From contig JACPWF010000006.1 of assembly GCA_016197155.1 (NCBI GenBank), positions 9,511 through 73,510 of the forward strand: a DNA stretch of 64,000 nucleotides. Direction: 5' to 3'. The notes below the pieces were generated by a model. That model was not told where the DNA came from, did not search any database, and was given only the letters and a program-made list of their open reading frames with translations. Below are positions 6,985-59,648 of this stretch, one piece after another; within the stretch, counting starts at the first letter, position 1; each line of letters begins with the position of its first letter. This stretch comes from Candidatus Omnitrophota bacterium. Its GTDB lineage: Bacteria; Omnitrophota; Gorgyraeia; 2-02-FULL-51-18. The translations under genes were made by a program, and so were the position numbers.

Positions 6985-7170
6985 TTAGAGATTTTCGAGG
7001 ATTCTCAAATATTCCTTGGTTGAGATCCCAAGAGTCTTCAAATTGCTTTTGATCTCAACCAGCTGAAGTTCTTTTGAGGCGAACACAACACACGGGCGGG
7101 AAAGATCGGCCCGGCTGTATATTTTATGATCGCCGACTTGACGGACAAGATAGCAATTCACATGAAGCAA
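6985..7170 (-). CDS. hicA: HicA-like mRNA-interferase toxin (YcfA family); start uncertain, possibly truncated
   Basis: 61 aa. VRQVGDHKIYSRADLSRPCVVFASKELQLVEIKSNLKTLGISTKEYLRILENL matches the HicA core (RQKGSHRIY.HPDG...VP.H.KELK.GTLRSILKQAGIS.EEFL..L). It overlaps the HicB ORF by 47 bp in another frame. Confidence 0.5.
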   Translation of the reverse strand: MLHVNCYLVRQVGDHKIYSRADLSRPCVVFASKELQLVEIKSNLKTLGISTKEYLRILENL

Positions 7171-7453
7171 AAGCGGGGATCTGCATCGGCTCGGTCTTTT
7201 GACCGATAATCTCGGGAGGCATGAAGGTGTTTTTAACTTTTTGCCAGCCGCAGTCCGTTAAAACTTTTTCCCATGTTCCCATCTTGGTCACTTCTTCGAT
7301 GAACAGGCGGAGAGTCGTGCGGAATGAATCAAGAGCGTCTTCAACGGAATCCCCATGAGAAGCCAGATCCAAGACGGGGGTATAGCAGACAAAAACACCC
7401 CCTTCTTTCATAAGAATCACGGGAAGGTCATATTCAACGGGCCGCTTTTTCAT
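7124..7453 (-). CDS. hicB: HicB-like antitoxin (UPF0150/HicB_lk family)
   Basis: KKRPVEYDLPVILMKEGGVFVCYTPVLDLASHGDSVEDALDSFRTTLRLFIEEV fits the HicB N-domain pattern. The start is trimmed to MKKRP, with a GAGG Shine-Dalgarno and an extended -10 (TGGTATACT) just upstream. Confidence 0.6.
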   Translation of the reverse strand: MKKRPVEYDLPVILMKEGGVFVCYTPVLDLASHGDSVEDALDSFRTTLRLFIEEVTKMGTWEKVLTDCGWQKVKNTFMPPEIIGQKTEPMQIPAFASCELLSCPSSRRS

Positions 7454-7530
7454 GGTTTTCGCCTCGGGCAAAGTATACCACACGAAGGTTAGTGATTCCA
7501 GATTTGGCGTTTCTTGAATTCTCGTATTTT

Positions 7531-7566
7531 AAGCCCACGCGGTCGTCTGCCGGAGGATTCGGAAAG
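7531..7566. repeat. Direct repeat copy 1 (36 bp; duplicated 3' end of the giant gene, including an in-frame TAA)
   Basis: aagcccacgcggtcgtctgccggaggattcggaaa is 32/36 identical to 8231-8266. Reverse translation gives FRILRQTTAWA*, against FRTLQQTAAWA* at the true giant-gene terminus. Confidence 0.8.
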
Positions 7567-7604
7567 GCCGATGCCACGAGTCACAAAATTAATATTTTAT
7601 TAAT

Positions 7605-7633
7605 TTGACAATTTCATTAAAAACAGGCATACT
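7605..7633 (+). promoter_or_regulatory. Sigma70-type promoter: TTGACA, 17-nt spacer, CATACT
   Basis: TTGACA (7605-7610), a 17-nt AT-rich spacer and CATACT (7628-7633) are followed by a GGAGAC Shine-Dalgarno and the ATG at 7654. Confidence 0.6.
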
Positions 7634-7653
7634 GGAGGCATCAGGAGACGAAA

Positions 7654-7914
7654 ATGACCACGATGCTCAAAATGAACCGTAACCGGCAAGTCAATATCCC
7701 CTCGGCTTTTGTCGCAAGGCTCAGCCTGGGCGAAGACCGGTACTTCAAAGCCGACCTTAAGGGAAACCATATCATTCTGACCCCGGTTGATCCGGTGGAG
7801 CGGGTTTTTTCCAAAGAAAGCCTTGACCTTGTCGAGGAAGTTTATGGACGGGAAAAGAAGTCGGCCAAACGGGTGACCCCGGCCTGGATCCAGAAGGCGC
7901 ATCGCCCGGCCTAA
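7654..7914 (+). CDS. AbrB/MazE/SpoVT-family antitoxin
   Basis: 86 aa. The N-terminal NRNRQVNIPSAFVARLSLGEDRYFKADLKGNHIILTPVD is a swapped-hairpin AbrB-type DNA-binding domain. The ORF ends one base before the start of the downstream toxin-like ORF. Confidence 0.7.
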   Translation: MTTMLKMNRNRQVNIPSAFVARLSLGEDRYFKADLKGNHIILTPVDPVERVFSKESLDLVEEVYGREKKSAKRVTPAWIQKAHRPA

Positions 7915-8232
7915 ATGCCCTTCGAGCTTTACTTTCTCCCCCCTTACGGGCGCTGTCTCAAGCATCTTGGAAACAAAGAAAAACGCATTGCCCGACTGGT
8001 CGTTTCCGCGCTTCTTGAATATTTCCACTCAAACTCTCCCACTGGCAACCCTTACATGATCCCTGTCGGGGGAAGGGCTTACCGTTTGGTTTTCAAAAAA
8101 CTGGACGGGGCTGTCTGGGAAGCGTACATTGAAAACCACGTTCGCGTTCTCACAAGACTCGACAAACACCGGCACTTTCTCGTCTTCGCCGGCAATCACG
8201 ATCAGGTCAGACAATTTCTAAAAGAAAATTAA
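7915..8232 (+). CDS. Putative toxin partner of the AbrB-type antitoxin (weak RelE/ParE-superfamily resemblance)
   Basis: 105 aa, immediately downstream of and translationally coupled to the antitoxin. The C-terminal AYRLVFKKLDGAVWEAYIENHVRVLTRLDKHRHFLVFAGNHDQV resembles RelE/YoeB-like cores. The family assignment is tentative. Confidence 0.45.
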   Translation: MPFELYFLPPYGRCLKHLGNKEKRIARLVVSALLEYFHSNSPTGNPYMIPVGGRAYRLVFKKLDGAVWEAYIENHVRVLTRLDKHRHFLVFAGNHDQVRQFLKEN

Positions 8233-11200
8233 GCCCACGCGGCCGTCTGTTGGAGGGTTCGGAAATACTGCTGGATTTGAGTCCAGGCGGCGCGGAAAAG
8301 CGGCGGCAGGGCCAAGCGTTTGGCGGCGGCGCGGGTGTTTGGGGAAATGTCTCCCGATAAAAATAAATGAAGCGAAAAAGAAAGGTCTGTCCAATCAACC
8401 TCCGGCAGACGGGAGCGATAGAGGCTCACGAAACCGTCCGGAATATTTTTTGGATCGACGCTCGCCGCAAACATGGCCAGCCAAATATCCGCTTCTGAAT
8501 CCAACTCGCCCCGGTCGAGCGGCTTGGCCGGAATAAACGGCAGAGCCTGCGCCGCGGTCCAGCTGTTTATTTCCCCCGGCGTCGCCAGCGCCAACTGCCG
8601 GTACGGTTTGCCGGTAGCGGGATGGATCCGGGCATCTTGGTTAATAACACCTTCCGCCGCGAGCGTCGCCGCCAGGGGCATTTTTAAAATTCTGTCAACG
8701 CCGGTCCCTTCAAAACGGAAAATAAAGTTTTTCGCGGCCGGCAGCCGGGAAATGCGCCTCAGCATCAAAAGTTCATTCAATAAATAAGCCTTGTCCCCCG
8801 GCAAACGTCCCAAGTCAATACTGACCACGCAGGTTTCTTGAGAAACCAGGCCCGAGTCTTTGTATTTTTCAAAGGCGGCACGGACCTTCGCGGTTTCTTC
8901 ATCTCCTCTTTCCAAAATTTCTACCGCGCTCAGCATTTTCCTATCATCCGCCGCCGTCAAACCACGATCCGTTTGCACGCGTTCAATATTCAAATTCGCC
9001 GCCACAATATCCGCCTCGGAATAATGAAACCGCAAAACCGGCCGCATCTCTTCATCAAATAAAATAATATTATTTCCCGACCGTGCCGCAAAACCGGCCC
9101 CATCTCCTATCCGAATCGGATAAGGAATTTTATTCTCCAGCTCATTCAGCCTCACCGGTAAAAAGGCCTGCCTAAGCCGAGCCTTCTCAGACGCATTCAC
9201 GAGTCTGGCCCCCGCCGTCCTCCGAAGCGCGCGCGGCAAAGACTGTCCCTCCGGCAAAAGCGACTCCGGGAATTCGTCATCAACTCCGTCCGGGATCCCT
9301 TCCCTATGAGCCCGCTCCTGCGACTTTATCCGCTTCTCTTCAAATTCACGCCTTAAGGCTTCTCTTCTAAGACTTTCTTTATGACTGTACTGCTTGTGCG
9401 GAAACCTCCGCCGCGCCGCCAGCCTCGCACCGCTCTCAAGTCCTCTTATTTTCGATCGGTCAATCAAAATTTTCGAAATAATCGACTCTATTTCTCCTAC
9501 TTTCTCACTATAGGGTCCTGAGGATTCACCACTTCGCCCGGAATAAACCGTAATGGATAAAAGACTCGCTAAAAGAACCCCCAGACGTTCCGCGCAGTTA
9601 TCCTGGATCGCATATTCTAATAATTCATTAATCTTTGCGAGGGCCTTTTTGGTTTCCGGGTCTAAACGAATATTTGAAATCCTTTTTTCTTGCGCATCAA
9701 GATAGGCAAGTTGCAACGCTGTCTGGTATTCCCCGAACAAAACCAACAACTCGTCCCGGAACGCCTTTTGTAAGGGGTCCGCCGTTCCCGCAGCCCCCAC
9801 ACCCCCTGATTTCTGATTCGCCTCCGATAAACCGGCCAACCGCGCGCCTTTGCCGGTCCGCGGGACGACATGTTTGTGCTTATCCGCGATGCGTTCCATG
9901 CGGTTTAGTTTTATTTTTTTAATTTTGATCATGAGTCTCAATACTGCGTTTGATGCCAACAAAGAATAAATAGCCATCAGCCGTTGCCACACGGCTCCCA
10001 CCCTCCCTGCCTGCCGGCTAGAAAGAGACAACCTCGCGGCGTCCGGCCTGGATTCCGACACCTGTTCTCGATAAAGGGTCTCTAAACAGGTGAACGCCTC
10101 GGGAGACAGTCGGCCTTCATCATGCAGGCGCGTCAGAACGGCAGAGAACGCAGAGGGGTCGGGTCTCTGGTTGGATAATTCTCCCGCCGACCCCGCCACC
10201 AAAGCGTCGGGGGGCAGCCCTTTGACTCCGCCCAGGGCCAGCCGCGCGGCGGTGGTCAAACCCGTTCTTACTATTTGTTCCAACCGACGTTTTCGATAAT
10301 GTGTGGAGGCGCTGTCTGAATCCGGTTCGCCGGAAAATATTTCCTCCAAAATAGACTTCCATCTTTCCAGTTCGATGGGGTCCGTTAACCCCTGCTCCAG
10401 GCGAACCGCCAAAATAGCCGACACGATAGCGGCCTCGACAACCGGCCACCTTTCATCCGAAAACCCTGAAATCGCCGCCAAAATATTTCCCCAGCCGGAA
10501 ACGGCAGGTTTTACAATTTTTTCGATCGTTTCCCGATCTTGCCCGTTAAATTCCGCGGGCGTCCATTTATCTTGATTTCGCTTGGATTTTTTTTCCGTGT
10601 CAGCCGGAACACGGAGATTTAAAATGTGAAATACGAGCGCCGACAGGCGATTCAAAATTCTCTCTGCCTTGCGATGTTTCTCCAATTCTTCCGTCAGTCC
10701 GCGGGCAAGCTCCATTTTTACACTACGGTTTGCGCCGGCCGGATTTTGAACACCTTCCTTGCAAAGCCATCCCGAAAGCCTGTCAAGCGTCAAAAATGCG
10801 ACAGACTCAGGATCTGAGCTTTTTCCGGCTCTTTCTAAAATATCCTCACGCACCCGGCCCAAGCCCGCGTAAGGGGAGGGGACATCCGTAAACCCCGCCA
10901 CGGACATGGACTCAAAAAATTCTGCCAGGAAAGGCCCCGCGACATCACGCTCTGATGAACGGGTGTCGTTGATGGTCTTTTTCAAATAATCCGCAACACT
11001 CTGAACCCAACCCCCATAATTCCCGCCGGGCGCCATTTTCGGCCTAAACAGTCTCAATCTTCCGGTCGCCGTGTCGGCAACACCCAGGAAAACCTCTTCG
11101 TCTCCCCCGAACAGTCGTTTCAGGTGAAACATATCCAAAAAGATATTTTTCAACTGCGTGACGGAAAAAAAGCGGCCGCTCGTCCCGTAAATAAACGCCG

Positions 11201-14200
11201 CGTTCTGGCGCGGTCTATGCCAGGCGGGGACCAGTTCGGGGCGGAAGACGACCTCGTTGGCAAATGCGTGCTCGAGGGCGCCTCCCCCCGCGACAAACTG
11301 GACCGGCGTCCCGTCAGGATTCATGAAAAGAATGCCCACGCTTCCCGTTTTTCGCAAAATCCTCTCGTCGATGCGTACAGGCCCCGCGTCCTTTTCCAGC
11401 TCGCCCGTCATGCGCGGCTCAAGCTCCAGTAAAAGGAAATTCCGCAGAATGTTCTTACGAAAATCCTCCGGCACGGCCTCATCTTTTTTCTGATCGCTTA
11501 TTTTCTCCAGCCCCCAGGCGCAATATTTTAAAAAAGCCGTCCGGTACTCGTTAAAAAATGCGGCATTCCAGACCCGCGGCCACTTTTCCCGGAAATCGGC
11601 CATCCGCTCCGCCCTGCCGGGAGTCTCCCGCAGTTCCGCGAGGATTTTTGCTTTCACGCGCACCACGCCGGAAAGAACCAGGAGCTTCGAAAAAAATTCA
11701 TTGTCCGATTCCGCCGCCTCAGGCTCTGTTCGATCGCGCACAAACTCGGCGGCCGTGTTCCTTGTTTCCTGTATTTCCCGTAAAAATGCGCTCTCCCCCG
11801 GATGAGATTTTAAAAAATCACCGATCACCGCCTCTTGTTCATCGATGATCCGTTTGATATTTTGCGTGACCTGTTCCAAAAAACCGCGCGTCGAAACGGC
11901 TTCCCCTTTGATCCGGTTCGCGTCCATGATCCCGAGGACAAGCTCTACCGTATTCAATTCCCTGCTCACCCTGCCGCGGGGCGTGTGAAACGTGACAAGG
12001 GCTGTGTCGAAAACCGGGAGGTCGCTTGTCCATAAATCAGGCGGCGGAAGCGTTCCCGAATCCGACACGATCGTGACAAGGCCATCCCTCAGGTCAACAA
12101 CGGACCGGCCTGGCCCCACCCTGCCCGACGCAATCTCTTCGGCGGCGTACTGAATGGGCGTCAATAAATCGTCAAACTCCCGCGACCGCGGTTCCGGTCG
12201 GATCGGCGGGGTCTTTTGATGATTCCCGGGGGGCGCGTTTCCGCCGCGTCCGCGCCGCGTCCGCGCGGCGCCGGCACCCGCTAGCCGCGCGCCAAGCACG
12301 CCGCCCGTATCAAGCTCATGCCGGATTTTTTCAAACTCCAGCACGGCCATCGCGAAGGTCCAATTGGACCAGTTAAGCGCGGAGGCCCCGCGCATCCGGA
12401 ATTTGACCCGCCCTCCTTCCTCATAGCGCTCGATTTGTTCGGAAAAAGACTTGCCTTTCGGCGCCAGGTCCCTCAGAAAATTCAGGGTGTCTTGCGCCCT
12501 TTGAAAAAGCGCGCCAACGATTTGCCAGTAACGTTCGTCTCCGGGAAAAATCGTCTTACTCGTATTCACGTCGTGGATTCCCTGATGATTAATAAATTTT
12601 CTAAAGCTCTCCGAATTTATATCTATTTTTCTCTCGTCCAAAATTTTCCGTATCGCCTTCAAATTAAACAAAACCGCCCACAGCGTCGTGATCACCCACG
12701 CGTGCCCGGAGTCGTTGGGCGCTTCCGTGAAAGCCAGTCCGCCGTATTTGTCGCCGGGATAACGCCCCCACAACACCGTGCGCGGGAACCGGACCGTCTG
12801 CTCCGGGGATAAGGCAAATTTTCTGGCGAACACATCATCCAGCTGAACGTAAGTTTCCAGGATCGCGGGATCAAAAAACCCGTGGTACGGCTCCGGCAAA
12901 TTCAGCGTATAGGGAAAGATTGTCTGCGCGTCGAGACGGGTGGGTTTCTCACCATTGGGTCCTTCGAGACGCCCCGAGTTAAACACGTAGCGGTGGGCCA
13001 AAAGATAGTCGGCGGGACGTTCCCAAGTGTCCGGCCGGCCTTTGTAAATCGGCAGGACTTCCCTCTCCAAAAAATCGAGGGGGCCTTGGCCCTGTTCCAA
13101 TTCCGAATAGGGACGCCCCGCAAGCTCGGCCAAGCCATTCAACGCTTCCCGCGAGCGCGCGGCCGATACCATGCGCTTCAGAACACCGTAGTAAAGGATG
13201 TCATTCATGGCGTGCTTCCCGTGAAACTCCTCCCACGCGTCCAAATCGCGCGGGTCATTCTCCGGATCACGACTGCCACGGACGTATAAAATCGAATGGA
13301 GAATATTTTTACGGATCGCCTCGACGGCCCGTTCGAGAAGAAAAAGCGCTTTCCGCTCCCGCTCGGATCCCGCTTCCAATAGACCGTTCTCAAAAAGATC
13401 GAGCATCAGAATCGCCGCGTGGGCGGGTCCGTCGCTCTGGTCGCCCCAATTGGTCTCCGGTTCGGACAGGCCGTCCCATCCCAGTCTTTGGGCATTCAGT
13501 TTGTGAGTGGCCCCGTAACCCTGATAAAGGTAGTCGAGAAATTTATTCAAAATGAGCCGCGCATTTTCGAAAGCGCCCGCGCGCCTGGCCAGAAATGCGG
13601 CAAACTGGCACGCGTCACGCATCCAAGTAAAACCGTACAAAGGGTTGCCTTCCACGGAGCGAGGATCGTCGATCCCGTCGGTCAAATGGGAAGAAGCAAA
13701 AATCGCGCCCGTTTTCATCGCGTCACCCAGGGCATCCGAAAGGGCCGTCACAAACGCCTGTCTAAAATCTTCCCCCACTCCCAACTGCGCGGGCGCGGCT
13801 CTCGCTTCCAGGTTTCTCTCAGAACTCCCGACAAGCCGGTGCCGCCGGTCATCAACCGGCACGTGAATGAGAGCTTTTTGCCTTCCGAAAGGATAAAAAT
13901 ACGTATCCCTCGAGTCTTCCTTTACCCTCGCCCGGACAGTCAATCGATGGGTCCCCGGAACCATGGTGTTATTTTCAAAACGAACCTTGAAAAAAACTGC
14001 TTCCGGAGGAAGTCCTCCGTTACCTGAGCCCACGGAAATAATGTTGGCCGGATAACGCTGTCTTCTGTTGGTGTGGTTGCTTTCAATTTCAATAACAAGA
14101 CTGTCTCTAATTTTCCGCGGGTCAATCACCCCGTCTAAAAACAGAACGCCTTCGACCACCAAAGGTTGGTCCGGTCCTATCAGATAAGGCGTGTGGAATG

Positions 14201-17200
14201 AAGTGACCCTGTCATTATTCACCGAGAGCCAGCCGTCCGTATCGGTTTTTTTCTCATCCACGCGAAAGGGGAGATTCTCCACCGGATTAGCCGTCATTTT
14301 AAAAATATGAACCGTGGGCGAAGCTCTGTGAAAATAGGGCCTGAGGCCTATGCTCAAACCTTCCTTCGCCAACTGCCGCCCCGACCGGTCGTACTGGCGA
14401 AGGGACTGTCCCTCGCCAGGTAAATGGGGGGCCATGTCCCGAAGGCGGTAGTTTTTGTTAGGGTCCGGGCTGAAAAGAGGCTTCACATCAACCGACACAA
14501 AATCTTTCATGCCGTCTTCCCCGGGCTCGCTTTTCAGGGACACGGCATGATTGGAAAGATTGATGCCGACGATGAGAGCCGTTTGTGGATTTGTTTCCCC
14601 CCGATTTTTTATCCCAAAGATCAAAAAAGGTTTTCCTTTTTCCGGATAATGAAGGGAAACCGCTTCAGCCGCACCCAACTCCCTGCCCAATCTTTTTCTC
14701 AAATTGACCAAACGGCAAAGGTAGGCCCTTGTCGAGGCGCTCACATTTTTGAAATAATCATGGTCTGCGATTTGATTCCACTTGGGACCGTCCCCGAGCG
14801 GCCAGACCGCAAAAAGTGTCGCGATCACGCGCGCGGCCTCTTCCCCCTGAATGTCCTGATAGCGCCGCCTCTCGGCGGGTTCGTTGGGACCGGAGATGGG
14901 TCTAAAAACGCCGGAGAGTTCCAAGAAATCCGAGTCCAGATAAACACGAAACCATCTGTCGTAGGTCCCCGCCATCCGCGCGCCCCGTCCCCCTCGTCTC
15001 GGGGAGGCGATCACTTCAAAGGCCGTGTTAGCATGATCCTCGAGAAACGGGTAAGCTGTCTTAAGTTCGGAAAAACGCCTTCGCGCCTCGGTCATCCTCT
15101 CGGCGGGAGACACAAACTTCATCGCCTCGGCCGTCACATGGCGGAGCATGCGTTCAAAAGGCGTCAGATAATATTCGCCGAATTCCTGCACGCGCATGTC
15201 CCATGAATACTTTGAATTAAGCGCGTTCTCAACCACGTGCTTCCATTGATTCGAATTTTTGTAAACTGACAGCGCTTCCGCGATGGCGCCTAAAAACTCC
15301 TCGTGATTGTATCCCTCAAAAATAAAACCGTTGCCTGTCGGGTGACGACCGGCATCATAAACTTGAACGGTGTCCTGCAATCCTCCCGTCTTTCTCACAA
15401 TCGGCACCGTTCCGTAAAGCATCGCGATCGGCGGGGTGAGTCCGAACGGCTCTGTTCTTGAAGGGACAATAAACAGATCACTGCCTGCGTAAATCAGCTT
15501 GTCATTCGAATCCATTTCGTATCCATCCAGATTCACGGGATTCTTGTCCAAACGGTCATCGGAATCGTTCAAATAAAAACGAAATTGCCCGCCGTACCCG
15601 CTTTGCCACAAGTAGTGCGCCAGATTCCTGAAATTTGCCTTTTCATCGCCAAAACCGTTCATGTCGTTGAAAATGATGACCTGCGCCCCGAGGTCCAGAG
15701 TCTTTTGAAGGACATCCCGCACAAGACCCGTTCCTTTTTGCTCAGGATCCAGGCGCGCGATCATGGAAATGATCGGCACGTTCTCATCAACATTCAAATC
15801 AAACCGTCTTTGCAGTTCAGCTTTCGCTAAAGGTTTAATTTTTTCCATTTCTCTAACCGTTTCAAACCCGCGGTAAGCGCCGGACCCATTCCCGTTCCCC
15901 TTATCCAACCCATTGGCAATCGGATGCCAGGCCCCTTCATCGTGTCGCCTTTTGGCAATCTCATCCAAACCCCCTGTCGGAACAAGGTTTCCCATAATTT
16001 CATCGCCGTAACCCTTGCTGACCGCGTCCACCCCGTCGGCGAGCGCGATCGCCGCGCGCGTCAGATTGAATCCGCCGCGCAGGGCAAAATCGCGCGCGTA
16101 CTGCGTCGGATCCGAAAGCGTCAAACCGAGAATATCGAACCATTCATCCGGAAACTGGCCCTGATAAGTGGGTCCGGCGTTGTGGATCCTGTAAAAATAC
16201 TTGGCGCGGGAGAGAGGATCGTTTAAATCATTTCGTGGATCGAGATACCAGCCGGCATGCTCCATCCTCCCCAGAATAGGAACGAGCGCCGTCAGCCAGT
16301 CGTTGGCGTGAATCACGTCCGGCTTGGGCATGAGCCCTCCGCGAACCAACTCGGGAATCACCTTCATCACACTGCGCGAGAAAAAGACAGCCTGCCGGAG
16401 CGAAGTGTCGTTGTAGGTGGTGTCATAAAGATGATGAGTGTAGTCGAGCGCCTGATTCGTGGCGCCAAGAAGCCAGTAATAAACGCCGTTGACCATCGCC
16501 TGTCTCACCGCGCCGGGAACCTGGACGCCCGCGACAGGCGCGGAGTATTCGATGTCCGTTGGCCGCACATCAAAATCTCCTGATTTTCCGTTGGACGAAT
16601 GTCTATAATCCGGCATAAAAAGCGAAACAAACCCATCTTCCAAACCTAGACGCGCCAGCGCGGCCGCCTGCTCGGCGGCCGAGTCGCCGAGACCGCCTCT
16701 CTTGGCAAACGGCCTCGCCTCCGGAGTGACTAACACAATGTGCGGAGGATAACCCTTCCACGATACCGGTTTCACCCGTCCGGCCATCCGCGCACCGGCC
16801 GGCTGCACGCGGCGGCGATACTTTGGATCTCGCAAAAAGCGGAGCGCGCCTTTTTTAAACGTCCACTCAATCCCCCCATCTTTTCGTTTCCCCGTTATTG
16901 TTCCTTCGCGGATACCTTTTTTCACGATCAGGCCCCATAGCCCACGGTTGAAGGACTGTATTTCGTGGTTAAAAATGTTTACGCGAATGGCCTCCTCGCC
17001 GCCCGCGGATGACTGAAGCAGTGAATCCCAGCGGCGGAGCTGTCCGATGACCCGATCATTTTTCTCTGCTTGGATTTTCCGCCGCGGGATCCGCCTGACG
17101 CCGACACGCCTGAAGTGCCGCAAAACGGCCCGGTAGCCCACCGCTTCCAAATCAATCAGCTTGCCGGCCAGATCCACGATTTCAGCTTCAGAACCCCCTC

Positions 17201-19073
17201 TCGGAGCGGTGAGTGCCAAGTACACGGCTGGGCGCTTTTTCATGTCGGCCAACGTGGAACCCTCCTTGATCACCAGCGCCCTCAGAGCCATGCGGTAAAA
17301 ACGGTCTGTCTTGGCCAAGCGGAGGAGTTGTTCAAAAACATCCGTGTTGATTGTCAGTTCCCGCTGGTCCGGTCCCTCAATCGCGCGATCGATCCGGACA
17401 GCCGCCGCGCCCACCGCCTCATTTTTATCGCGACGGGTTCCGGCGGAAATAAAAACTTTGTTGGGGACATTCAAAAATTCATTCACCCACCCCCGCTCTT
17501 CCCGGCTCAAGCGATCCGAATTCCTAAAAAATTCTCTCAGGCCCCGAAGAATCTTTTCCGGACGGTTGTCCGCTGAGACGATGGCCGGGCCTTGAATAGA
17601 TTTAACCGGAGGCGCGGCATCCTCTTTCACTTCCAAAAAACGATAAACGAAACAAACGACCGACAATGAAACTGCGAATATTACTCCCCCCAAAAGCAGA
17701 TCTCGTCTGTTCACCAAATACCTTCTATTGGGTTCGGAGTGATCGTTCGGATCCTGTGCGGACAGCCTCGCGGCGAACAACCGGCTCATTGAATAACCTT
17801 GAACCAAAAGCGCGTAAATAACCGGGCGTGTCAGCCGGTCTAAATCCAGCTGTGCCGGATTAGACGAGTTTCTATGAGCTTGAATAGCGGAAACCGCCTC
17901 ATTTATCGCGTCATTATTCAGGCTCAGCGTTGAAATGAGCTCAACGATTTTCTCGCTGAATGGCTTCTGCCGGGGAAATTCTTGTTCTTCGGGTCTTATT
18001 TTTATGAACCAATTGTTCAACAGCTTTCCGACCTGCGAGATCCTTATTTCTTCGTCGTTCAATCGATTTCTTTTTTGTTCTAATTTCAAATTCTCTTGAT
18101 AATGATAAACGGTCGATTCATAAACGTCATGGGCTTCCCTAAAAATCTCTTCCTGGTTTGGGTAAACTTTTTTTAATATTCCCCACACCGCATCAAAAGT
18201 GACGTCGCTCGTCTGCCGGCCGGGGGTGACGGGTACATTGGTATAACCTGTGATACTCGCCAATCTCGCCCCGCCGGTTCCATGTTGCCAAGCGCTGGCC
18301 TCGTTCCTCAAACTCGCCAACCGCGCGGCGGCAAGCGGTTCAAAAATGGGCAGTGCCCGAACCCCTGAGACAGCCGGGGTCAGACCCCTGTCCGGCGATG
18401 GCCGGTGAGGGGTCAGGCCCCTCAAGGGCTCCAAAAGCACCTCTTCATATTTTTTCTGACTCGTTTCGGACGTGACATTCGGCGTGAGAACGACGTAGGA
18501 CCAGCCTTTTTCCTTGAATAATTTTTTGAGATGCGCGGTGTGGTAGCCGCCCGCGATGAGAATGGCCGCCTTCGGCGTCCGGAGAGTGGATTGTGCCTGC
18601 CTGCCGGACAGGCAGGGAGAGTGGGTCGTGGATTTATCCACCATCCACGATCCACCATCCACGATCCGCTGTGTATTTCTTACAAACGCCCTGTCTCTGG
18701 CATTCACAGACCCATAAAACCGTCTCAGCAATTTTTTCCCGTCCTCCAAAATATTTTTGCTGGGCACCATGTCCGCAAAACACCCGCGGTCGGCAAGCTC
18801 ACGGTTCACAAAAGCCAGCGTCGAGAGCGTCGAGAAATCTTTTTCGTTGAAATCAAACAGACGGAATTCCTTGGAGGACATCTGGATCCGGTAAGCACTT
18901 TCCAAAAGCCGCAGGTAACGGTCAATCGCATGTAGGGTCGGAGGGGTCAGAGGCCTCCGACCCCTTTTTAGAATGACGGAATACACCCTCTCCTCCGTCC
19001 GCTCCGACTCATTCAGAAGTGTTTTGTAAGTGACAGAACAAAAAATTCTTTTTTGTTCTGTCATCCCGAGCAA
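8229..19073 (-). CDS. Giant multidomain protein (up to 3,614 aa) with a GT5 glycogen/starch-synthase-like domain and a GH15 glucoamylase-like domain; the 5' end is ambiguous
   Basis: A single uninterrupted 10,845-bp ORF. GT5 motifs: [13 protein letters not shown] (KTGGL type), [14 protein letters not shown], and the C-terminal [39 protein letters not shown]. GH15 motifs: [24 protein letters not shown] (catalytic WEE) and [31 protein letters not shown]. One hydrophobic helix lies near aa 445 ([22 protein letters not shown]). About 1,700 C-terminal residues are unassigned. Start candidates are TTG 19073, ATG 19064 and ATG 18884. Confidence 0.85.
   Translation of the reverse strand: [3614 protein letters not shown]
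8231..8266. repeat. Direct repeat copy 2 (the true 3' end of the giant gene)
   Basis: Matches 7531-7566. It encodes the last 11 codons plus the stop of the giant ORF. Confidence 0.8.
18935..18964. repeat. REP-like GC palindrome GGGTCGGAGGGGTCAGAGGCCTCCGACCCC
   Basis: A member of the palindrome family that also occurs at 50798-50828 and 56551-56572. It lies inside the maximal giant ORF but upstream of its ATG at 18884. Confidence 0.6.
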
Positions 19074-50699: not shown

Positions 50700-50797
50700 T
50701 GTTCTCCCTTTTTGTTAATTTTAATTATTATTGTTAATTATTAATTAACTATTGATAATTATACATAACAAAGTTAACATTTTCAAGCCCCACCCGT

Positions 50798-50828
50798 GGG
50801 GTCGGAGGGGTCAGAGGCCTCCGACCCC
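50798..50828. repeat. REP-like GC palindrome GGGGTCGGAGGGGTCAGAGGCCTCCGACCCC; a separate 24-nt perfect palindrome GGTACCGGGTTCGAACCCGGTACC lies at 50839-50862
   Basis: Two strong hairpins in the divergent intergenic region between the elaB-like and FNR-like genes. Confidence 0.6.
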
Positions 50829-56537: not shown

Positions 56538-56550
56538 AAGCGGGGTGGTT

Positions 56551-56572
56551 GGGGTCAGAGGCCTCTGACCCC
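56551..56572. terminator. Perfect 22-bp palindrome GGGGTCAGAGGCCTCTGACCCC between convergent genes (REP-like; probable bidirectional terminator)
   Basis: Seen directly in the sequence, between the stop at 56537 (+) and the nadA stop at 56583 (-). Confidence 0.6.
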
Positions 56573-56582
56573 TACGACCCCA

Positions 56583-57563
56583 TCAGTAGCTGGCGATCAC
56601 CGCGTTGGGGTGATCCTTGGAGACATCCATCATGCGCCGGAGCGTTTTTTCCGCGCGCTGACGGATGCCTTCGGGGATCTCGATCCGGTGTTCCAGGACC
56701 TCCAGCGCGTGGGCCACCCAGCCGAGGGTCGTCATCTTCATCGTTTGGCAGACGAATTGCTCCGTCGGGACGATGAAGCGTTTTGTGGGATGGTCTTTTT
56801 TTAATTTAAAAATCATCCCCATTTCCGTGCCGATGATGAAGGTGTCGGCCCTGCTTTTGGCGATGTAGGGCGAGAAGCCGCTCGTCGAGCACACGTGATC
56901 GGCCAGGTCAATCACATCCGGCGGGCATTCGGGGTGCGCGATAAAAGGCGCGCCCGGATATTTCGCCTTCGTCCTCAAAACATCCTCAGCCGTCACGCGG
57001 ATGTGCGTTGTGCAGAATCCCGACCAGAGAATGATTTCCTTTTCGGGGCAGAAACGCCGGACATAATGGCCGAGGTTTTTGTCGGGGACGAATAAAATTT
57101 GTCTGTGCGGGAGAGATTTGACAATTTGGACCGCGTTGGAGGATGTGCAGGCAATGTCGCTCTCGGCCTTCACCTCGGCGGAGCTGTTGACGTAGCAAAC
57201 CACGGCCGCGTCGGGAAATTCCTTCTTTTTTTCGCGCAGGCGATCGGCGGTGGCCATGAGCGCCATCGGGCAGTCGGCCTCGCGCACGGGCAGGATCACG
57301 GTTTTTTCGGGATTTAAAATTTTAGCGCTCTCGGCCATGAAATCCACGCCGCAGAAAACGATGACGGCCGCGCCCGTGCCGATTGCGGCCTTGGAGAGCG
57401 CCAGGGAATCCCCGAGGATGTCCGCGACTTCCTGCACCTCAAAATTCTGGTAGTTGTGCGCGACAAGGTAGGCGTTTCGTTCCTTTTTCAAACGAAACAC
57501 TTTCTCGCGGAGCTTTTCCTTCAGCGCTTTCGGATTGGCTTTTTCTAAAACGTCGAGTTCCAA
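56583..57563 (-). CDS. nadA: Quinolinate synthase A
   Basis: 326 aa with a NadA pattern (the three conserved 4Fe-4S Cys ligands and HPECP). It starts with TTG at 57563-57561, at the edge of a 71-bp duplication. Confidence 0.9.
   Translation of the reverse strand: MELDVLEKANPKALKEKLREKVFRLKKERNAYLVAHNYQNFEVQEVADILGDSLALSKAAIGTGAAVIVFCGVDFMAESAKILNPEKTVILPVREADCPMALMATADRLREKKKEFPDAAVVCYVNSSAEVKAESDIACTSSNAVQIVKSLPHRQILFVPDKNLGHYVRRFCPEKEIILWSGFCTTHIRVTAEDVLRTKAKYPGAPFIAHPECPPDVIDLADHVCSTSGFSPYIAKSRADTFIIGTEMGMIFKLKKDHPTKRFIVPTEQFVCQTMKMTTLGWVAHALEVLEHRIEIPEGIRQRAEKTLRRMMDVSKDHPNAVIASY
57491..57561. repeat. Direct repeat copy 1 (71 bp; 5' end of nadA)
   Basis: 69/71 identical to 59576-59646. 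Confidence 0.85.
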
Positions 57564-57726
57564 CGTCTATATCCTCTCTGCTTAGGCCGTCATCCCCGAA
57601 ACCCCTTATCGGGGATCAAGCGGTTGATCCCCCCGCATTCGTGGGAATGACAACTTATAAGTTCGCTTCATCTTCCTTGTTTGTGAAAATGAACAAATCA
57701 CGTGGGTTTGAGCAATGCTCTTAAAA

Positions 57727-58854
57727 TCAGTCGGGATTGACTTTTCTTCTTCCCTGTATTGAATAAATTATTCTGGCATCTTTTATACCACTTGCGGTGA
57801 GACTCTTAATAAAAACACTGGCTAAAGGCAAGGCATCTTTGGCGGGAATCTCTCCTGGCCAACCTGGAACGGGGTATTTGGGACCAGCTAAAATATTAAA
57901 TTGCAATCTCGTTTGGTATCCATGCAAATCCGTAAAAGAAACATACAGCTCGCCAGTTTCCTTTGGTCGGTTTTCAAACATATAACTTATCATTTCATCC
58001 CAAGACATACTTCCGGAATGAATCTTAGTCCCTTTAACACAAAGAGAACCCGTTGCGACCCATTTACCGAAAGATTTCCCTTTTAATTCAGCGATCTTTT
58101 TACAAGTATTTTCGTCAAACACTTTGGTTATGGTTTGCATGGAAATTATATTACCTTCTCCATCTTTAGAATCTAGAAGCTGGTGCTCATCGATCGCATA
58201 ATAATTTTCAGAAAAGGAGGGCATAAAAAGTTTCTTACGCAAGAATGCCTCCAAAGATATAGACAAAGCAGGTATTATTGATTCAATTTCAGACCGCCAA
58301 CCCTCAATGTAGAGTTGCAATTCGTAATCGGGTCCACTGCTAGGTGTAAATACATAAAAATACTTTAGCGACCGCTGAGTTATTAGATTATCAACACAAT
58401 CTATTGTTGAGGTTTGAATTATAATCGGTCCGTTTTCTTTTAAATCAAACGAAATAGACCCCGTAACATTTCCGGGACAGAATGTTCCAGATTCAACATT
58501 TTTTTGAGTCAGTCGTTCGGCTTGCTTTAGGGCTTGAATGTGTTGCTCTTTGGAATACTTATTATCCAGTTTTAGTTTCCCAAGAAGAATCATCGGTTTT
58601 CCCGGAAGGACCGGATTGACCCAGCCTCCTTCAAGCTCAAATGCTGGCATGATTTTGTTCTTCGTAGCAACAAATAAGGGCGAATTCAATTGGGCATTCG
58701 TGAGACGCTGAAACCCTGAGGGAGGGCTTAGCAAATCGGCATCAGATATAGCATTATTCTGGGCATGAGAAACGAAGGGGTAGTTTAAAGAACCAAAAAT
58801 AAATAGCGTACCCAGACTTCCGTTGGCTATTACCTTTTTAATTTTAGGATTCAT
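57727..58854 (-). CDS. Hypothetical secreted protein, encoded in the low-GC island
   Basis: 375 aa with an N-terminal signal peptide. The local GC (~40%) is well below the ~60% background. Confidence 0.6.
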   Translation of the reverse strand: MNPKIKKVIANGSLGTLFIFGSLNYPFVSHAQNNAISDADLLSPPSGFQRLTNAQLNSPLFVATKNKIMPAFELEGGWVNPVLPGKPMILLGKLKLDNKYSKEQHIQALKQAERLTQKNVESGTFCPGNVTGSISFDLKENGPIIIQTSTIDCVDNLITQRSLKYFYVFTPSSGPDYELQLYIEGWRSEIESIIPALSISLEAFLRKKLFMPSFSENYYAIDEHQLLDSKDGEGNIISMQTITKVFDENTCKKIAELKGKSFGKWVATGSLCVKGTKIHSGSMSWDEMISYMFENRPKETGELYVSFTDLHGYQTRLQFNILAGPKYPVPGWPGEIPAKDALPLASVFIKSLTASGIKDARIIYSIQGRRKVNPD

Positions 58855-59393
58855 GTTGGCGCTTGAAAATTGGACTCACATTCGTTGGTGATTTTGGAGA
58901 GCTTCGCAATATGCTTTTCACAAAGGGTCATTACGTCTTCGTCTAGAATGTCATCAAAACAGCACCGGATTTTACCCGTAGGTTTTGCAGTTGTTATTAA
59001 TGGTCTACTGCGAACAACATTTACCGTTGCTCCGCCTGTTCCCATAAGATGATATAAAACCACCAGATCCTTGGTTCCTTCACCGGTTGTTTCTTCAATT
59101 AGGCTTACGTGAGGATGACTTTGCACAGGACGCTCGTGTATGGTAATATCCCTTTGCCTATCCAAGTATTTCATAAACTTGTCTTGACGCATTTCTCCGA
59201 CTTTTTTTTCATACCATTTCTCAAATCCGGGAACACTGAAAAATTCCTTTTTCATCATAAATGTTATACTACGAGAGGCTGATAAAAATGCACTGATGTT
59301 GTACCTAAAAGCATCGGTATGAAAAGGGCTCTCCTTTGCACGATCCAAAAAGTATTTTGCTTCATTAAGCTTATCCGCTGTAGCAGTCACCAA
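58851..59393 (-). CDS. Hypothetical protein, encoded in the low-GC island
   Basis: 180 aa. Low GC. It overlaps the downstream gene by 4 bp. Confidence 0.55.
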   Translation of the reverse strand: MVTATADKLNEAKYFLDRAKESPFHTDAFRYNISAFLSASRSITFMMKKEFFSVPGFEKWYEKKVGEMRQDKFMKYLDRQRDITIHERPVQSHPHVSLIEETTGEGTKDLVVLYHLMGTGGATVNVVRSRPLITTAKPTGKIRCCFDDILDEDVMTLCEKHIAKLSKITNECESNFQAPT

Positions 59394-59547
59394 ATCTAAT
59401 CCTTTAAAATCTTATCATAACAGCTGTCACAAATCGGCTGTGTCTGAGCTTCCCCCGGCCCTCCAAAGGTTACGGGTCTCTCACAAGTACTTGGCTCTTC
59501 TTTCCCACATACCGAGCATTCCACAAACTACTCCTTGTAATAAAATT

Positions 59548-59648
59548 TAGTGCCCTGCTCCTAAACTGGAAGCGAGACGAAACACTTTCTCGCGGAGCTT
59601 TTCCTTCAGTGCTTTCGGGTTGGCTTTTTCTAAAACGTCGAGTTCCAT
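59548..59648 (-). pseudogene. Truncated duplicate of the nadA 5' end (33 codons; MELDVLEKANPKALKEKLREKVF then divergent)
   Basis: Its ATG at 59648-59646 lies 1 nt after the nfu stop codon. Its first 23 codons are identical to the nadA N-terminus. Confidence 0.5.
59576..59646. repeat. Direct repeat copy 2 (71 bp; ancestral nfu-nadA junction)
   Basis: Matches 57491-57561 with 2 mismatches. It ends in the ATG, where copy 1 has TTG. Confidence 0.85.

What the first reader, a model, noticed from the sequence alone, without database searches (positions are those of the whole stretch)
7531..8266. AbrB-type antitoxin plus toxin cassette flanked by 36-bp direct repeats that duplicate the last 11 codons and stop of the giant gene
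The sequence aagcccacgcgg(t/c)cgtctg(c/t)(c/t)ggagg(a/g)ttcggaaa occurs at 7531-7566 and at 8231-8266. Both copies reverse-translate to an F-R-x-L-x-Q-T-x-A-W-A-stop tail. Copy 2 is the real 3' end of the giant ORF; copy 1 is orphaned on the far side of the cassette. Between them sit a strong sigma70-like promoter (TTGACA-17-CATACT), an AbrB/MazE-fold antitoxin and a coupled toxin-like ORF. This looks like a self-contained TA module inserted by a mechanism that duplicates (or brings a replacement copy of) the target gene end. That is analogous to integrative elements that regenerate tRNA 3' ends. The architecture is the same as at the nadA island further on.
Basis: seen in the sequence. Interest (0 to 1): 0.7.

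Follow-up and report, generated by a model that had tools for sequence, protein, structure and literature searches.

The report
Mobile toxin-antitoxin cassette duplicating gene tail
A self-contained 0.65-kb toxin-antitoxin gene pair sits on the very end of a giant gene in an uncultured Omnitrophota bacterium, flanked by two copies of that gene's last 11 codons; sister copies of the cassette elsewhere suggest this footprint arises when a relative's gene end is brought in with the cassette, which is a rare visible trace of how such small modules move.

Summary
A 37-bp imperfect direct repeat (7529-7565 and 8229-8265, 33/37 identical) brackets a promoter, an 86-aa gene and a 105-aa gene. Copy 2 is the last 11 codons plus stop of a 3614-aa gene; copy 1 is an orphan. 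The 105-aa protein models as a RelE/ParE-fold toxin. The 86-aa protein is weakly MazE/AbrB-like.

The pair, with its palindromic operator and promoter, is a discrete unit. It occurs in about 19 different Omnitrophota contexts, and homology stops about 20 nt upstream of the -35 box and at the toxin stop. Two other cassette loci (L003, L049) also duplicate the neighbouring gene's last 14-18 codons. A 2-kb island at nadA in this window duplicates nadA's first 23 codons. In those three pairs the copies differ almost only synonymously, so the orphans evolved as working gene ends.

Best reading: the cassette was acquired by homology-anchored recombination that brought in a relative's gene end and displaced the resident one. 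The outcome resembles e14 at icd, but there is no integrase. The window's own four differences are uninformative, and no empty site was found.

Unexpectedly, 8 of about 19 cassette loci abut genes of at least 1000 aa.

Verdict: a new variant of a known kind, of moderate interest.

The parts
7529..7565 (-). Direct repeat copy 1. This is the orphan copy of the giant-gene tail and reads FRILRQTTAWA* on the minus strand.
   Evidence: It lies in no ORF that continues upstream in that frame.
7566..7588 (.). Spacer between the orphan tail and the conserved cassette. It has no counterpart next to copy 2.
7589..7603 (+). Palindrome TTAATA-TTT-TATTAA abutting the -35 box. It is the conserved left edge of the cassette and a probable operator for the antitoxin.
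   Evidence: Read. It is conserved in all aligned cassettes. The operator role is inferred.
7605..7633 (+). Sigma-70-type promoter TTGACA-17-CATACT.
   Evidence: 10 of 12 positions. TTGACA is invariant across the six loci aligned and present at all 16 loci listed.
7654..7914 (+). 86-aa antitoxin candidate. It has an N-terminal MazE/AbrB-like beta region and a C-terminal helical region.
   Evidence: There are no Pfam or NCBIfam hits.
7915..8232 (+). 105-aa toxin candidate with a RelE/ParE fold. Its ATG follows the antitoxin stop directly.
   Evidence: There are no Pfam, NCBIfam or PADLOC hits.
8229..8265 (-). Direct repeat copy 2. This is the working last 11 codons plus stop of the giant gene (FRTLQQTAAWA*).
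8229..19073 (-). Giant gene: 3614 aa from the first TTG, or 3585 aa in the public record P0110. It carries GT5, GT1 and GH15 domains and a conserved C-terminal domain of about 250-300 aa.
8399..8417 (.). Inverted partial copy of the tail core inside the giant gene. It matches copy 1 at 13/13 bases (CGTCTGCCGGAGG) and copy 2 at 11/13, and is predicted to pair with the tail in the giant mRNA.
6985..7483 (-). Neighbouring HicA-like gene (6985-7170) and putative HicB-like gene (7124-7453 or 7483). The orphan tail sits just upstream of them.
   Evidence: HicA_toxin scores E=0.004, below the Pfam cut-off. The partner gene has no hit.
57492..57562 (-). nadA island, repeat copy at the working nadA 5' end. 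The start codon is TTG at 57563, preceded by a GAGAGGA ribosome-binding site on the island side.
59577..59647 (-). nadA island, orphan copy of nadA codons 2-24. It keeps an ATG at 59646-59648, one base after the stop of the NifU-like gene. It differs from the other copy at 2 of 71 nt, both synonymous.

Best explanation
The segment from about 7586 to 8232 is a discrete, horizontally mobile type II toxin-antitoxin cassette. It carries a palindromic operator, a strong promoter, an AbrB/MazE-like antitoxin and a RelE/ParE-fold toxin.

It lies convergent to a giant multi-enzyme gene, with overlapping stop codons. The 37-bp direct repeat is the footprint of its arrival. The DNA that brought the cassette also carried the last 11 codons and stop of a related copy of the giant gene.

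Recombination anchored in that homology followed one of two routes. One is a single crossover of a small circle. The other is a homologous crossover in the gene body combined with an illegitimate join at the far end. Either route left one tail attached to the gene (copy 2) and stranded the other beyond the cassette (copy 1).

No element-encoded recombinase is involved.

Shown: the repeat, the cassette boundaries, the varied contexts, the toxin fold, and the selection signature in the orphan copies at sister loci. Inferred: toxin-antitoxin activity, the recombination route, and which copy is the resident one.
For: 1. Repeat. The repeat is real and non-random, and the structure is identical in a Logan contig from another sequencing run.

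2. Cassette boundaries. Alignment of six loci and junction listings of 16 show that homology begins at ATTAATAATnTATTAAT-TTGACA and ends at the toxin stop.

3. Mobility. The closest cassette (83% aa identity over both proteins) sits between glmS and rsmI, 2 nt and 7 nt from its neighbours and without a repeat. Contexts differ even within cassette clades.

4. Protein identity.
- The toxin model has pLDDT 85. The 27 best PDB matches, and nearly all of the top 40, are RelE, YafQ, YoeB, HigB or ParE toxins at probability about 1.0 and TM 0.4-0.6.
- The antitoxin's best matches by profile and by fold are MazE and AbrB, though weak.
- Other TA genes lie nearby in sister loci: PIN, AbiE, and a BrnT-like gene (assigned by eye).

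5. Independent tail duplications.
- L003 (also seen in L004, L005 and L020): the purE tail AACFAHLILSKNSE* versus AACFAHLILSSNSE*, with 11 nt differences in 45, one aa change, and stop TGA versus TAA.
- L049: 57 bp, WGALREAYLTLRTVSTSA* versus WGALCEAYLTLRTVSTSA*, with 7 nt differences and one aa change.
- nadA island in this window: 2 differences in 71 nt, both synonymous.
- Probability of so few aa changes under random substitution: <1e-5, 0.002 and 0.046 respectively. So the orphans diverged while they were working gene ends. This means two alleles were brought together.

6. No recombinase. There is no ORF other than the two TA genes between the repeats, and there are no terminal inverted repeats.

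7. Weak local hint. The orphan copy 1 matches an inverted segment inside the giant gene perfectly (13/13), while copy 2 matches 11/13. This is what would be expected if copy 1 were the resident tail.
Against: - No cassette-free orthologue, donor allele or empty site was found.
- The window's own repeat has only 4 differences, which change 3 of 11 residues. It therefore shows no selection signature (P=0.79) and fits in-situ duplication plus drift equally well.
- Only 3 of about 19 cassette loci show a tail duplication, plus one distant relative (L033) with a non-coding repeat.
- The longest identical runs inside the repeats are short: 14 nt in the window and 11 nt in L003. That is poor substrate for RecA crossover within the repeat itself.
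- In two loci the repeat begins within 3 nt of the toxin stop, which could point to a more specific mechanism.
- Toxicity and neutralisation are untested.
Confidence: 0.55

Rival explanations
1. Site-specific integration by a tyrosine or serine recombinase acting in trans. The cassette, or a larger element since decayed, carried an attP that mimics the target gene end. Crossover in a short identical core then regenerated the gene end, as for e14 or phage 21 at icd and for tRNA-targeting islands.
For: - The outcome is the same as e14 at icd: the gene extends into the element and a C-terminal pseudogene fragment is left at the far end (PMC13626634).
- The window repeat has a 14-nt identical block at the stop-codon end.
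- The repeat starts within 3 nt of the toxin stop in both the window and L003.
Against: - There is no recombinase gene between or beside the repeats.
- The repeat sequences are unrelated between loci (giant-gene tail, purE tail, L049 tail, nadA 5' end) and their lengths vary from 37 to 71 nt.
- Most cassette copies have no repeat at all.
- The cassette was not found on viral contigs.
Confidence: 0.2
2. In-situ target duplication at insertion, by transposition-like staggered cuts or replication slippage, followed by drift of the orphan copy.
For: The window's four differences change three residues of the orphan, as expected for a neutral orphan. The geometry relative to the cassette is similar in the window and L003.
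Against: - At the sister loci the orphans keep the reading frame, the stop codon and 13/14 or 17/18 residues despite 12-24% nucleotide divergence.
- Duplication lengths vary.
- There are no terminal inverted repeats and no transposase.
Confidence: 0.12
3. The pair is not an addiction module. Instead it is a conserved accessory or regulator of giant genes, for example through convergent antisense transcription into the giant gene's 3' end, and the repeat is incidental.
For: Eight of about 19 distinct cassette loci have an immediate neighbour of at least 1000 aa, usually convergent and within 0-150 nt. No terminator separates the toxin from the giant gene.
Against: - Orientation relative to the giant gene varies: convergent, upstream or downstream.
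- The closest cassette lies between glmS and rsmI, with no giant gene nearby.
- The RelE fold, the operator and promoter, and the coupled small genes are standard type II TA features.
Confidence: 0.1
4. Chance similarity or a metagenome assembly artefact.
For: The source is a metagenome-assembled genome.
Against: None of 100 shuffles gave two matches. A Logan contig from another sequencing run gives the identical 1759 bp. Analogous structures recur in four separate assemblies of L003.
Confidence: 0.02

Closest known systems
e14 (and lambdoid phage 21) integrated in the 3' end of icd in E. coli, leaving the icdC C-terminal pseudogene
   Same: The insertion lies inside the 3' end of a protein-coding gene. 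The incoming DNA supplies a replacement C-terminal coding segment, and the displaced segment survives as an orphan on the far side. Differences between the two copies are mostly synonymous or conservative (PMC13626634; compare).
   Different: e14 is a 15-kb prophage remnant with its own integrase and excisionase and one defined att site. Here the insert is 0.65 kb, holds only two TA genes, the duplicated piece is 37 bp, and each locus duplicates a different gene end.
Genomic islands and prophages that integrate into tRNA or tmRNA genes and regenerate the 3' end
   Same: Direct repeats made of the target gene's end; the gene stays intact after insertion.
   Different: Those elements encode the integrase next to attL or attR and reuse a conserved target. 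Neither feature is seen here. The statement about those elements rests on general knowledge.
Toxin-antitoxin cassettes of sedentary chromosomal integrons
   Same: Small TA cassettes with their own promoter, sometimes inverted, bounded by repeats, and thought to stabilise neighbouring DNA (PMC11023631 and bioRxiv 10.1101/2022.08.03.502626, found).
   Different: There is no attC-like sequence shared between cassettes. Homology ends at the toxin stop, and the flanking repeat is target-derived and locus-specific. No integron integrase was seen next to the cassette.
PrlF-YhaV and similar pairs that combine an AbrB/MazE-type antitoxin with a RelE/ParE-superfamily toxin
   Same: The same pairing of folds, the same gene order (antitoxin first) and the same small sizes. 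The known family is cited from general knowledge; the folds here come.
   Different: No sequence-level membership: there are no Pfam, NCBIfam or PDB sequence hits for the toxin. This family appears confined to Omnitrophota-type metagenome bins.
Homology-facilitated illegitimate recombination, and Campbell-type insertion-duplication, in bacteria
   Same: One homologous anchor lets foreign DNA enter. The result can carry a short duplication of the anchor, with the two copies being donor and recipient alleles. This comparison rests on general knowledge.
   Different: These processes were described in laboratory transformation systems. Here the process is only inferred from footprints, and the anchors visible as repeats are very short (37-71 bp).

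Membership tests
Type II TA toxin, RelE/ParE superfamily | RelE/ParE alpha-beta fold | tested here: met
   The AlphaFold model has pLDDT 85. The 27 best Foldseek PDB hits, and nearly all of the top 40, are RelE, YafQ, YoeB, HigB or ParE at probability about 1.0 and TM 0.4-0.6.
Type II TA toxin, RelE/ParE superfamily | Match to a curated sequence model of the superfamily | tested here: not met
   No Pfam, NCBIfam, PADLOC or PDB-sequence hit. It is therefore an undescribed family within the fold.
Type II TA toxin, RelE/ParE superfamily | Small upstream partner gene in the same operon, with coupled stop and start and its own promoter and operator | tested here: met
   TAA at 7912-7914 is followed by ATG at 7915. 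The promoter is at 7605-7633 with a palindrome at 7589-7603. The arrangement is conserved in all the loci examined.
Type II TA toxin, RelE/ParE superfamily | Toxicity, and neutralisation by the partner | not testable with these tools
   This needs expression experiments. The invariant residues R57, K62, R77 and H95 are compatible with a ribonuclease site but are not proof.
AbrB/MazE/SpoVT antitoxin | Swapped-hairpin beta-barrel DNA-binding domain at the N-terminus | tested here: inconclusive
   No Pfam hit. Profile against PDB sequences: MazE at E=0.4. Model pLDDT is 71, and below 60 in the N-terminal part. The best Foldseek hits are MazE, AbrB and VapB, but at E=0.2-5. NCBI names one homologue AbrB/MazE/SpoVT.
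Integrative element that regenerates a gene end (e14/icd type, tRNA islands) | Direct repeats consisting of the target gene's end, with the gene left intact | tested here: met
   also L003 and L049.
Integrative element that regenerates a gene end (e14/icd type, tRNA islands) | Element-encoded integrase adjacent to an att site | tested here: not met
   Only the two TA ORFs lie between the repeats. The neighbours are hicAB-like genes and the giant gene.
Integrative element that regenerates a gene end (e14/icd type, tRNA islands) | The same att core reused at different insertions of the element | tested here: not met
   The repeat sequences at the window, L003, L049 and L033 are unrelated to one another.
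Integron gene cassette | An attC recombination site at the cassette's 3' end, shared in structure between cassettes | tested here: not met
   Cassette homology ends at the toxin stop, with nothing conserved beyond it. An attC covariance model was not run.
Integron gene cassette | IntI integrase and attI nearby | not tested
   No systematic integrase search of the window or the loci was made.
Transposon, IS or MITE | Terminal inverted repeats and a fixed-length target-site duplication | tested here: not met
   No inverted repeat at the cassette ends. Duplications are 37, 45, 57 and about 46 bp.

The most novel reading that the evidence does not exclude
This TA family is specifically tied to the giant multi-enzyme genes of Omnitrophota. 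It is retained at their 3' ends either because it penalises deletion of these very long, costly genes or because it transcribes antisense into them. The tail-regenerating footprint would then reveal a general, recombinase-free route by which stand-alone TA cassettes hop between related genomes, carrying a short piece of the neighbouring gene as their homology handle.
Probability: 0.25. Interest if true: 0.75.

Novelty: new variant of a known kind. Interest (0 to 1): 0.55.

Why it matters
Type II toxin-antitoxin loci are well known for their patchy distribution, yet how a bare two-gene module with no recombinase enters a new chromosomal site is poorly documented. Here the arrival footprint is still legible.

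- The cassette boundaries are defined to the base.
- A duplicated gene end recurs at three independent cassette loci and at an unrelated island in the same genome.
- The synonymous-only differences at the sister loci argue that the spare copy is a displaced allele, not a target-site duplication.

This turns the question of how TA cassettes move into something testable with population metagenomes or simple recombination assays. The recurrent position of this cassette family next to giant multi-enzyme genes of Omnitrophota was not found in the two giant-gene preprints that were term-searched. If confirmed, it would link a small addiction module to the maintenance or control of the largest bacterial genes.

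Tried and rejected
Searches that found nothing:
- The search for a cassette-free orthologue failed. Neither a genome-contig scan nor a word-indexed protein search with the giant C-terminus found anything.
- The exhaustive HMMER search did find C-terminal homologues, but without genomic context.
- Exact look-ups of the toxin and of two HicB start variants found nothing.
- The antitoxin look-up returned only an identical contig.
- The cassette is absent from viral contigs and from PADLOC. Pfam and NCBIfam gave nothing for either protein. Rfam found nothing in the window.

Ideas rejected:
- Integron cassette. No shared attC-like sequence follows the toxin stop.
- Transposon or MITE. There are no terminal inverted repeats, and duplication length varies.
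- A shared recombination core. The 5-mer TTCGG occurs in all four repeats, but by my own estimate about 0.07 shared 5-mers would be expected by chance, and its position within the repeats is inconsistent. I treat it as chance.
- Spread of the cassette through homology of a conserved giant-gene tail. A C-terminal-domain HMM hits only the window, L022/L026 and L025. L002, L049 and L006 resemble it only weakly, and the tails are too divergent at the DNA level.
- A conserved RNA stem between tail and upstream coding sequence. This is significant only in the window (p=0.03) and not in nine other convergent neighbours.
- L002 as a syntenic orthologue of the window locus. Its giant gene shows no tblastn similarity to the window's.
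Full report
**1. Observation**

The sequence TTAAGCCCACGCGG(T/C)CGTCTG(CC/TT)GGAGG(A/G)TTCGGAAA occurs at 7529-7565 and at 8229-8265. It is 37 bp long and 33 positions are identical. It has no other copy in the window, and none of 100 dinucleotide shuffles produced two matches. A flank-versus-flank local alignment beat all 200 shuffles.

Copy 2 is the end of ORF 8229-19073(-), which is 3614 aa and ends ...FRTLQQTAAWA*. Copy 1 would read FRILRQTTAWA* but is attached to no gene.

Between the copies lie:
- a TTGACA-17-CATACT promoter at 7605-7633;
- an 86-aa ORF at 7654-7914;
- a 105-aa ORF at 7915-8232, whose ATG directly follows the first gene's TAA and whose stop overlaps the giant gene's stop.

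A Logan contig from run SRR12113391 is 100% identical over 1759 bp that span both copies. The structure is therefore not an assembly accident.

**2. What the two proteins are**

Neither protein hits Pfam, NCBIfam or PADLOC. Both belong to tight families confined to Omnitrophota-type bins. The toxin has 44 homologues and the antitoxin 65. All are about 106 and 86 aa long, share 56-87% identity, and are always adjacent in the same order in the loci examined.

The source organism is a Candidatus Omnitrophica metagenome-assembled genome, with locus tags HYZ52_00675 and HYZ52_00680.

*Toxin candidate.* The 105-aa protein gives a confident model with pLDDT 85. Its 27 best PDB matches, and nearly all of the top 40, are RelE, YafQ, YoeB, HigB or ParE toxins at probability about 1.0. 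Residues R57, K62, R77 and H95 are invariant in the family.

*Antitoxin candidate.* The evidence for the 86-aa protein is weaker.
- Its profile's best PDB sequence matches are MazE, at E=0.4.
- Its model has pLDDT 71 and is poor at the N-terminus.
- The model's best structural matches are MazE, AbrB and AbrB-type VapB, at E=0.2-5.
- NCBI names one homologue as AbrB/MazE/SpoVT family.

I therefore accept 'RelE-fold toxin' and treat 'AbrB-type antitoxin' as likely but unproven. The combination resembles PrlF-YhaV (general knowledge).

**3. The cassette is a discrete, mobile unit**

Six loci were aligned and the junctions of 16 were listed. Similarity starts at a conserved palindrome-plus-promoter (consensus ATTAATAATnTATTAAT-TTGACA-ATnTTATTAA; in the window TTAATA-TTT-TATTAA at 7589-7603). 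It ends exactly at the toxin stop, and the flanks are unrelated.

The closest cassette (83% aa identity over both proteins) sits between glmS and an rsmI-like methylase. It lies 2 nt and 7 nt from its neighbours and has no repeat. This placement was seen in several samples.

Other copies lie next to PIN, AbiE, CitMHS, PLD, purE and hisG genes. Contexts differ even inside cassette clades.

No copy was found on viral contigs. There are no terminal inverted repeats. No gene other than the two TA genes lies between the window's repeats.

**4. The tail duplication recurs, and the orphans look like former working gene ends**

*L003* is seen in four assemblies (L003, L004, L005, L020). Here the cassette follows purE in the same direction.
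- The last 14 codons and stop of purE (AACFAHLILSKNSE*, TGA) reappear 2 nt after the toxin stop as AACFAHLILSSNSE* (TAA).
- There are 11 nucleotide differences in 45, one amino-acid change, and a Ser codon switched from AGC to TCC.

*L049* carries a 57-bp repeat (88% identical) flanking the cassette.
- It encodes WGALREAYLTLRTVSTSA* versus WGALCEAYLTLRTVSTSA*, with 7 nucleotide differences and one amino-acid change.
- Two more degenerate tail-like copies lie nearby.

*The nadA island* in the window itself is a 2-kb insert (57563-59576) carrying two unrelated genes. It is flanked by a 71-nt repeat at 57492-57562 and 59577-59647.
- The two differences between the copies are both third-position synonymous changes.
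- The copy next to the NifU-like gene keeps an ATG one base after that gene's stop.
- The working nadA now starts at a TTG preceded by a GAGAGGA ribosome-binding site on the island side.

Simulations placed the same number of random substitutions in each repeat. The probability of so few amino-acid changes is below 1e-5 for L003, 0.002 for L049 and 0.046 for nadA.

An orphan that had merely drifted since an in-situ duplication would not keep its frame, its stop and its residues. So at those loci the two copies diverged as functional alleles in different lineages and were later joined.

The window's own pair is uninformative. It has four differences affecting three residues (P=0.79).

A distant cassette, L033 (33% toxin identity), is flanked by a non-coding repeat of about 46 nt. 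Most other loci show no repeat.

**5. Mechanism**

The best-supported account is homology-anchored acquisition from a diverged relative. The incoming DNA carried the cassette together with the adjacent end of the donor's copy of the target gene. Recombination used that homology, and the resident end was left stranded on the other side.

Two routes fit the data. One is a single crossover of a small circle (Campbell type). The other is a homologous crossover in the gene body plus an illegitimate join a few codons before the resident stop. The second route copes better with the short identical runs, which are 14 nt in the window and 11 nt in L003.

The outcome parallels e14 at icd. There the gene extends into the element and an icdC C-terminal pseudogene remains at the far end (PMC13626634).

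This account explains:
- the variable repeat length (37, 45, 57 and 71 nt);
- the locus-specific repeat sequence;
- the allele-like divergence between copies;
- the absence of a recombinase.

It does not explain why the repeat starts within 3 nt of the toxin stop in two loci.

A trans-acting site-specific recombinase remains possible. So does true target duplication, for the window alone. No empty site or donor allele was found.

**6. A local hint about which copy is resident**

The tail core CGTCTGCCGGAGG of copy 1 has a perfect 13-nt inverted match inside the giant gene at 8399-8411. Copy 2 matches at only 11 of 13 positions.

In the predicted fold of the giant mRNA's 3' end, the whole tail pairs with this upstream segment. 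Pair probabilities are near 1 for all but the two mismatched positions. A reconstructed cassette-free version carrying copy 1 pairs without the internal mismatches.

The duplex is stronger than 97% of shuffled tails in the window. It is not significant in nine other convergent neighbours. This weakly favours copy 1 as the original tail, but it is not conserved evidence.

**7. Unexpected association with giant genes**

The last 250-300 residues or so of the window's giant protein form a domain. It is found at the extreme C-terminus of other giants (6782, 4376 and 2799 aa) and as stand-alone proteins of 181-418 aa. The terminal helix is conserved (...EWTQvIQlYRNiqRMVsqAA*). The duplicated tail is therefore a genuine part of a conserved domain.

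Of about 19 distinct cassette loci, eight have an immediate neighbour of at least 1000 aa: the window, L002, L003, L006, L017, L022/L026, L025 and L053. Most of these are convergent, with stops 0-150 nt apart. L040 has such a gene one position further away.

Three of these neighbours carry the same C-terminal domain. Several are 'multi-enzyme' giants:
- GT5, GT1 and GH15 in the window;
- PTS-HPr and FHA in L007;
- PEPCK and PYC_OADA in L040;
- TIM, iPGM and hexokinase in L053.

The window has 2 ORFs of at least 1000 aa in about 60 genes. With that background, the enrichment has binomial P of about 1e-5. It stays below 0.05 even at an 8% background. The loci are not fully independent, however.

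Term searches inside two preprints on Omnitrophota giant genes found no mention of this link. One notes mobile-DNA-rich flanks and a single RHH antitoxin beside a giant gene.

Possible reasons, all inferred, are co-residence in hypervariable regions, protection of costly genes against deletion, or antisense transcription.

**8. Verdict**

The object is a new family of RelE-fold TA cassette whose insertion footprint (a duplicated, allele-like gene end) is legible and recurrent. It is a new variant of known kinds (gene-end-regenerating insertion; mobile TA cassettes) rather than a new category. Interest is moderate, and would rise if the giant-gene link or the recombinase-free route were confirmed.

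Noticed in passing
window 8229-19073 (-), protein positions 249, 268, 760, 1364, 2261, 2942, 3076, 3215, 3288: The giant protein carries the short motif [GASR]-A-R-[LM]-[AV] (typically G-A-R-L/M-A-G) nine times, against 0.15 expected from shuffles. Three copies lie close to the mapped domain borders: before GT5, after GT1 and after GH15. The motif occurs 21 times in a 6782-aa homologue and 9 times in a 4335-aa one. It may be a linker or a processing site of multi-enzyme giants.
   Followed up: partly
window 57492-57562 and 59577-59647 (island 57563-59576): A 2-kb, two-gene island was inserted into the 5' end of nadA and is flanked by a 71-nt repeat (2 differences, both synonymous). The orphan copy keeps the original ATG one base after the stop of the NifU-like gene. 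The working nadA now uses a TTG with a ribosome-binding site supplied by the island.
   Followed up: partly
window 8399-8417 versus 7544-7556 and 8238-8256: An inverted copy of the tail core lies inside the giant gene, matching the orphan copy at 13/13 and the working copy at 11/13. It is predicted to form a long-range stem closing the last 170 nt or so of the giant mRNA. The stem is not conserved at other loci.
   Followed up: partly
L002, L003, L006, L017, L022/L026, L025, L040, L053 and the window: Cassettes of this family sit next to genes of at least 1000 aa far more often than expected: 8 of about 19 loci, binomial P about 1e-5 to 5e-3 depending on the assumed background. Several neighbours are fusions of central-metabolism enzymes.
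   Followed up: partly
window giant C-terminus (last ~300 aa); P0111-P0118: An unannotated C-terminal domain of about 250-300 aa (no Pfam hit) is shared by several giant proteins and by stand-alone proteins of 181-418 aa. It ends in a conserved helix ...EWTQxIQxYRNxxRMVxxAA*.
   Followed up: partly
L049 176-200 and 901-925; tails at 801, 959, 1754, 2083: A perfect 25-bp inverted repeat brackets a 700-bp segment holding a BrnT-like gene (assigned by eye) next to the cassette. Four tail-like copies of the neighbouring gene's end lie in a row, which suggests repeated insertions at one gene end.
   Followed up: partly
L023, L024, L025: These three contigs share near-identical cassettes but combine their left and right flanks differently (A|B, D|B, A|C). 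The cause is either recombination between cassette copies or assembly chimeras at a repeated cassette.
   Followed up: no
L033 376-421 and 1114-1203: A distant relative of the cassette (33% toxin identity) is flanked by a non-coding direct repeat of about 46 nt. The right copy is interrupted by a 39-nt insert that looks hairpin-like by eye (not folded).
   Followed up: partly
window 18932-18964, 50796-50828, 56540-56581: A palindromic element, GGGGTCAGAGGCCTC(C/T)GACCCC, recurs in the window. One copy lies just downstream of the nadA stop. It looks like a REP-type or terminator-type repeat (family D2).
   Followed up: no
L034-L037 (glmS-cassette-rsmI context): In these contigs the gene caller reports a 98-aa antisense ORF instead of the toxin. 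L039, which has the same antitoxin, has an intact 106-aa toxin. I did not check whether the toxin is disrupted in some strains.
   Followed up: no
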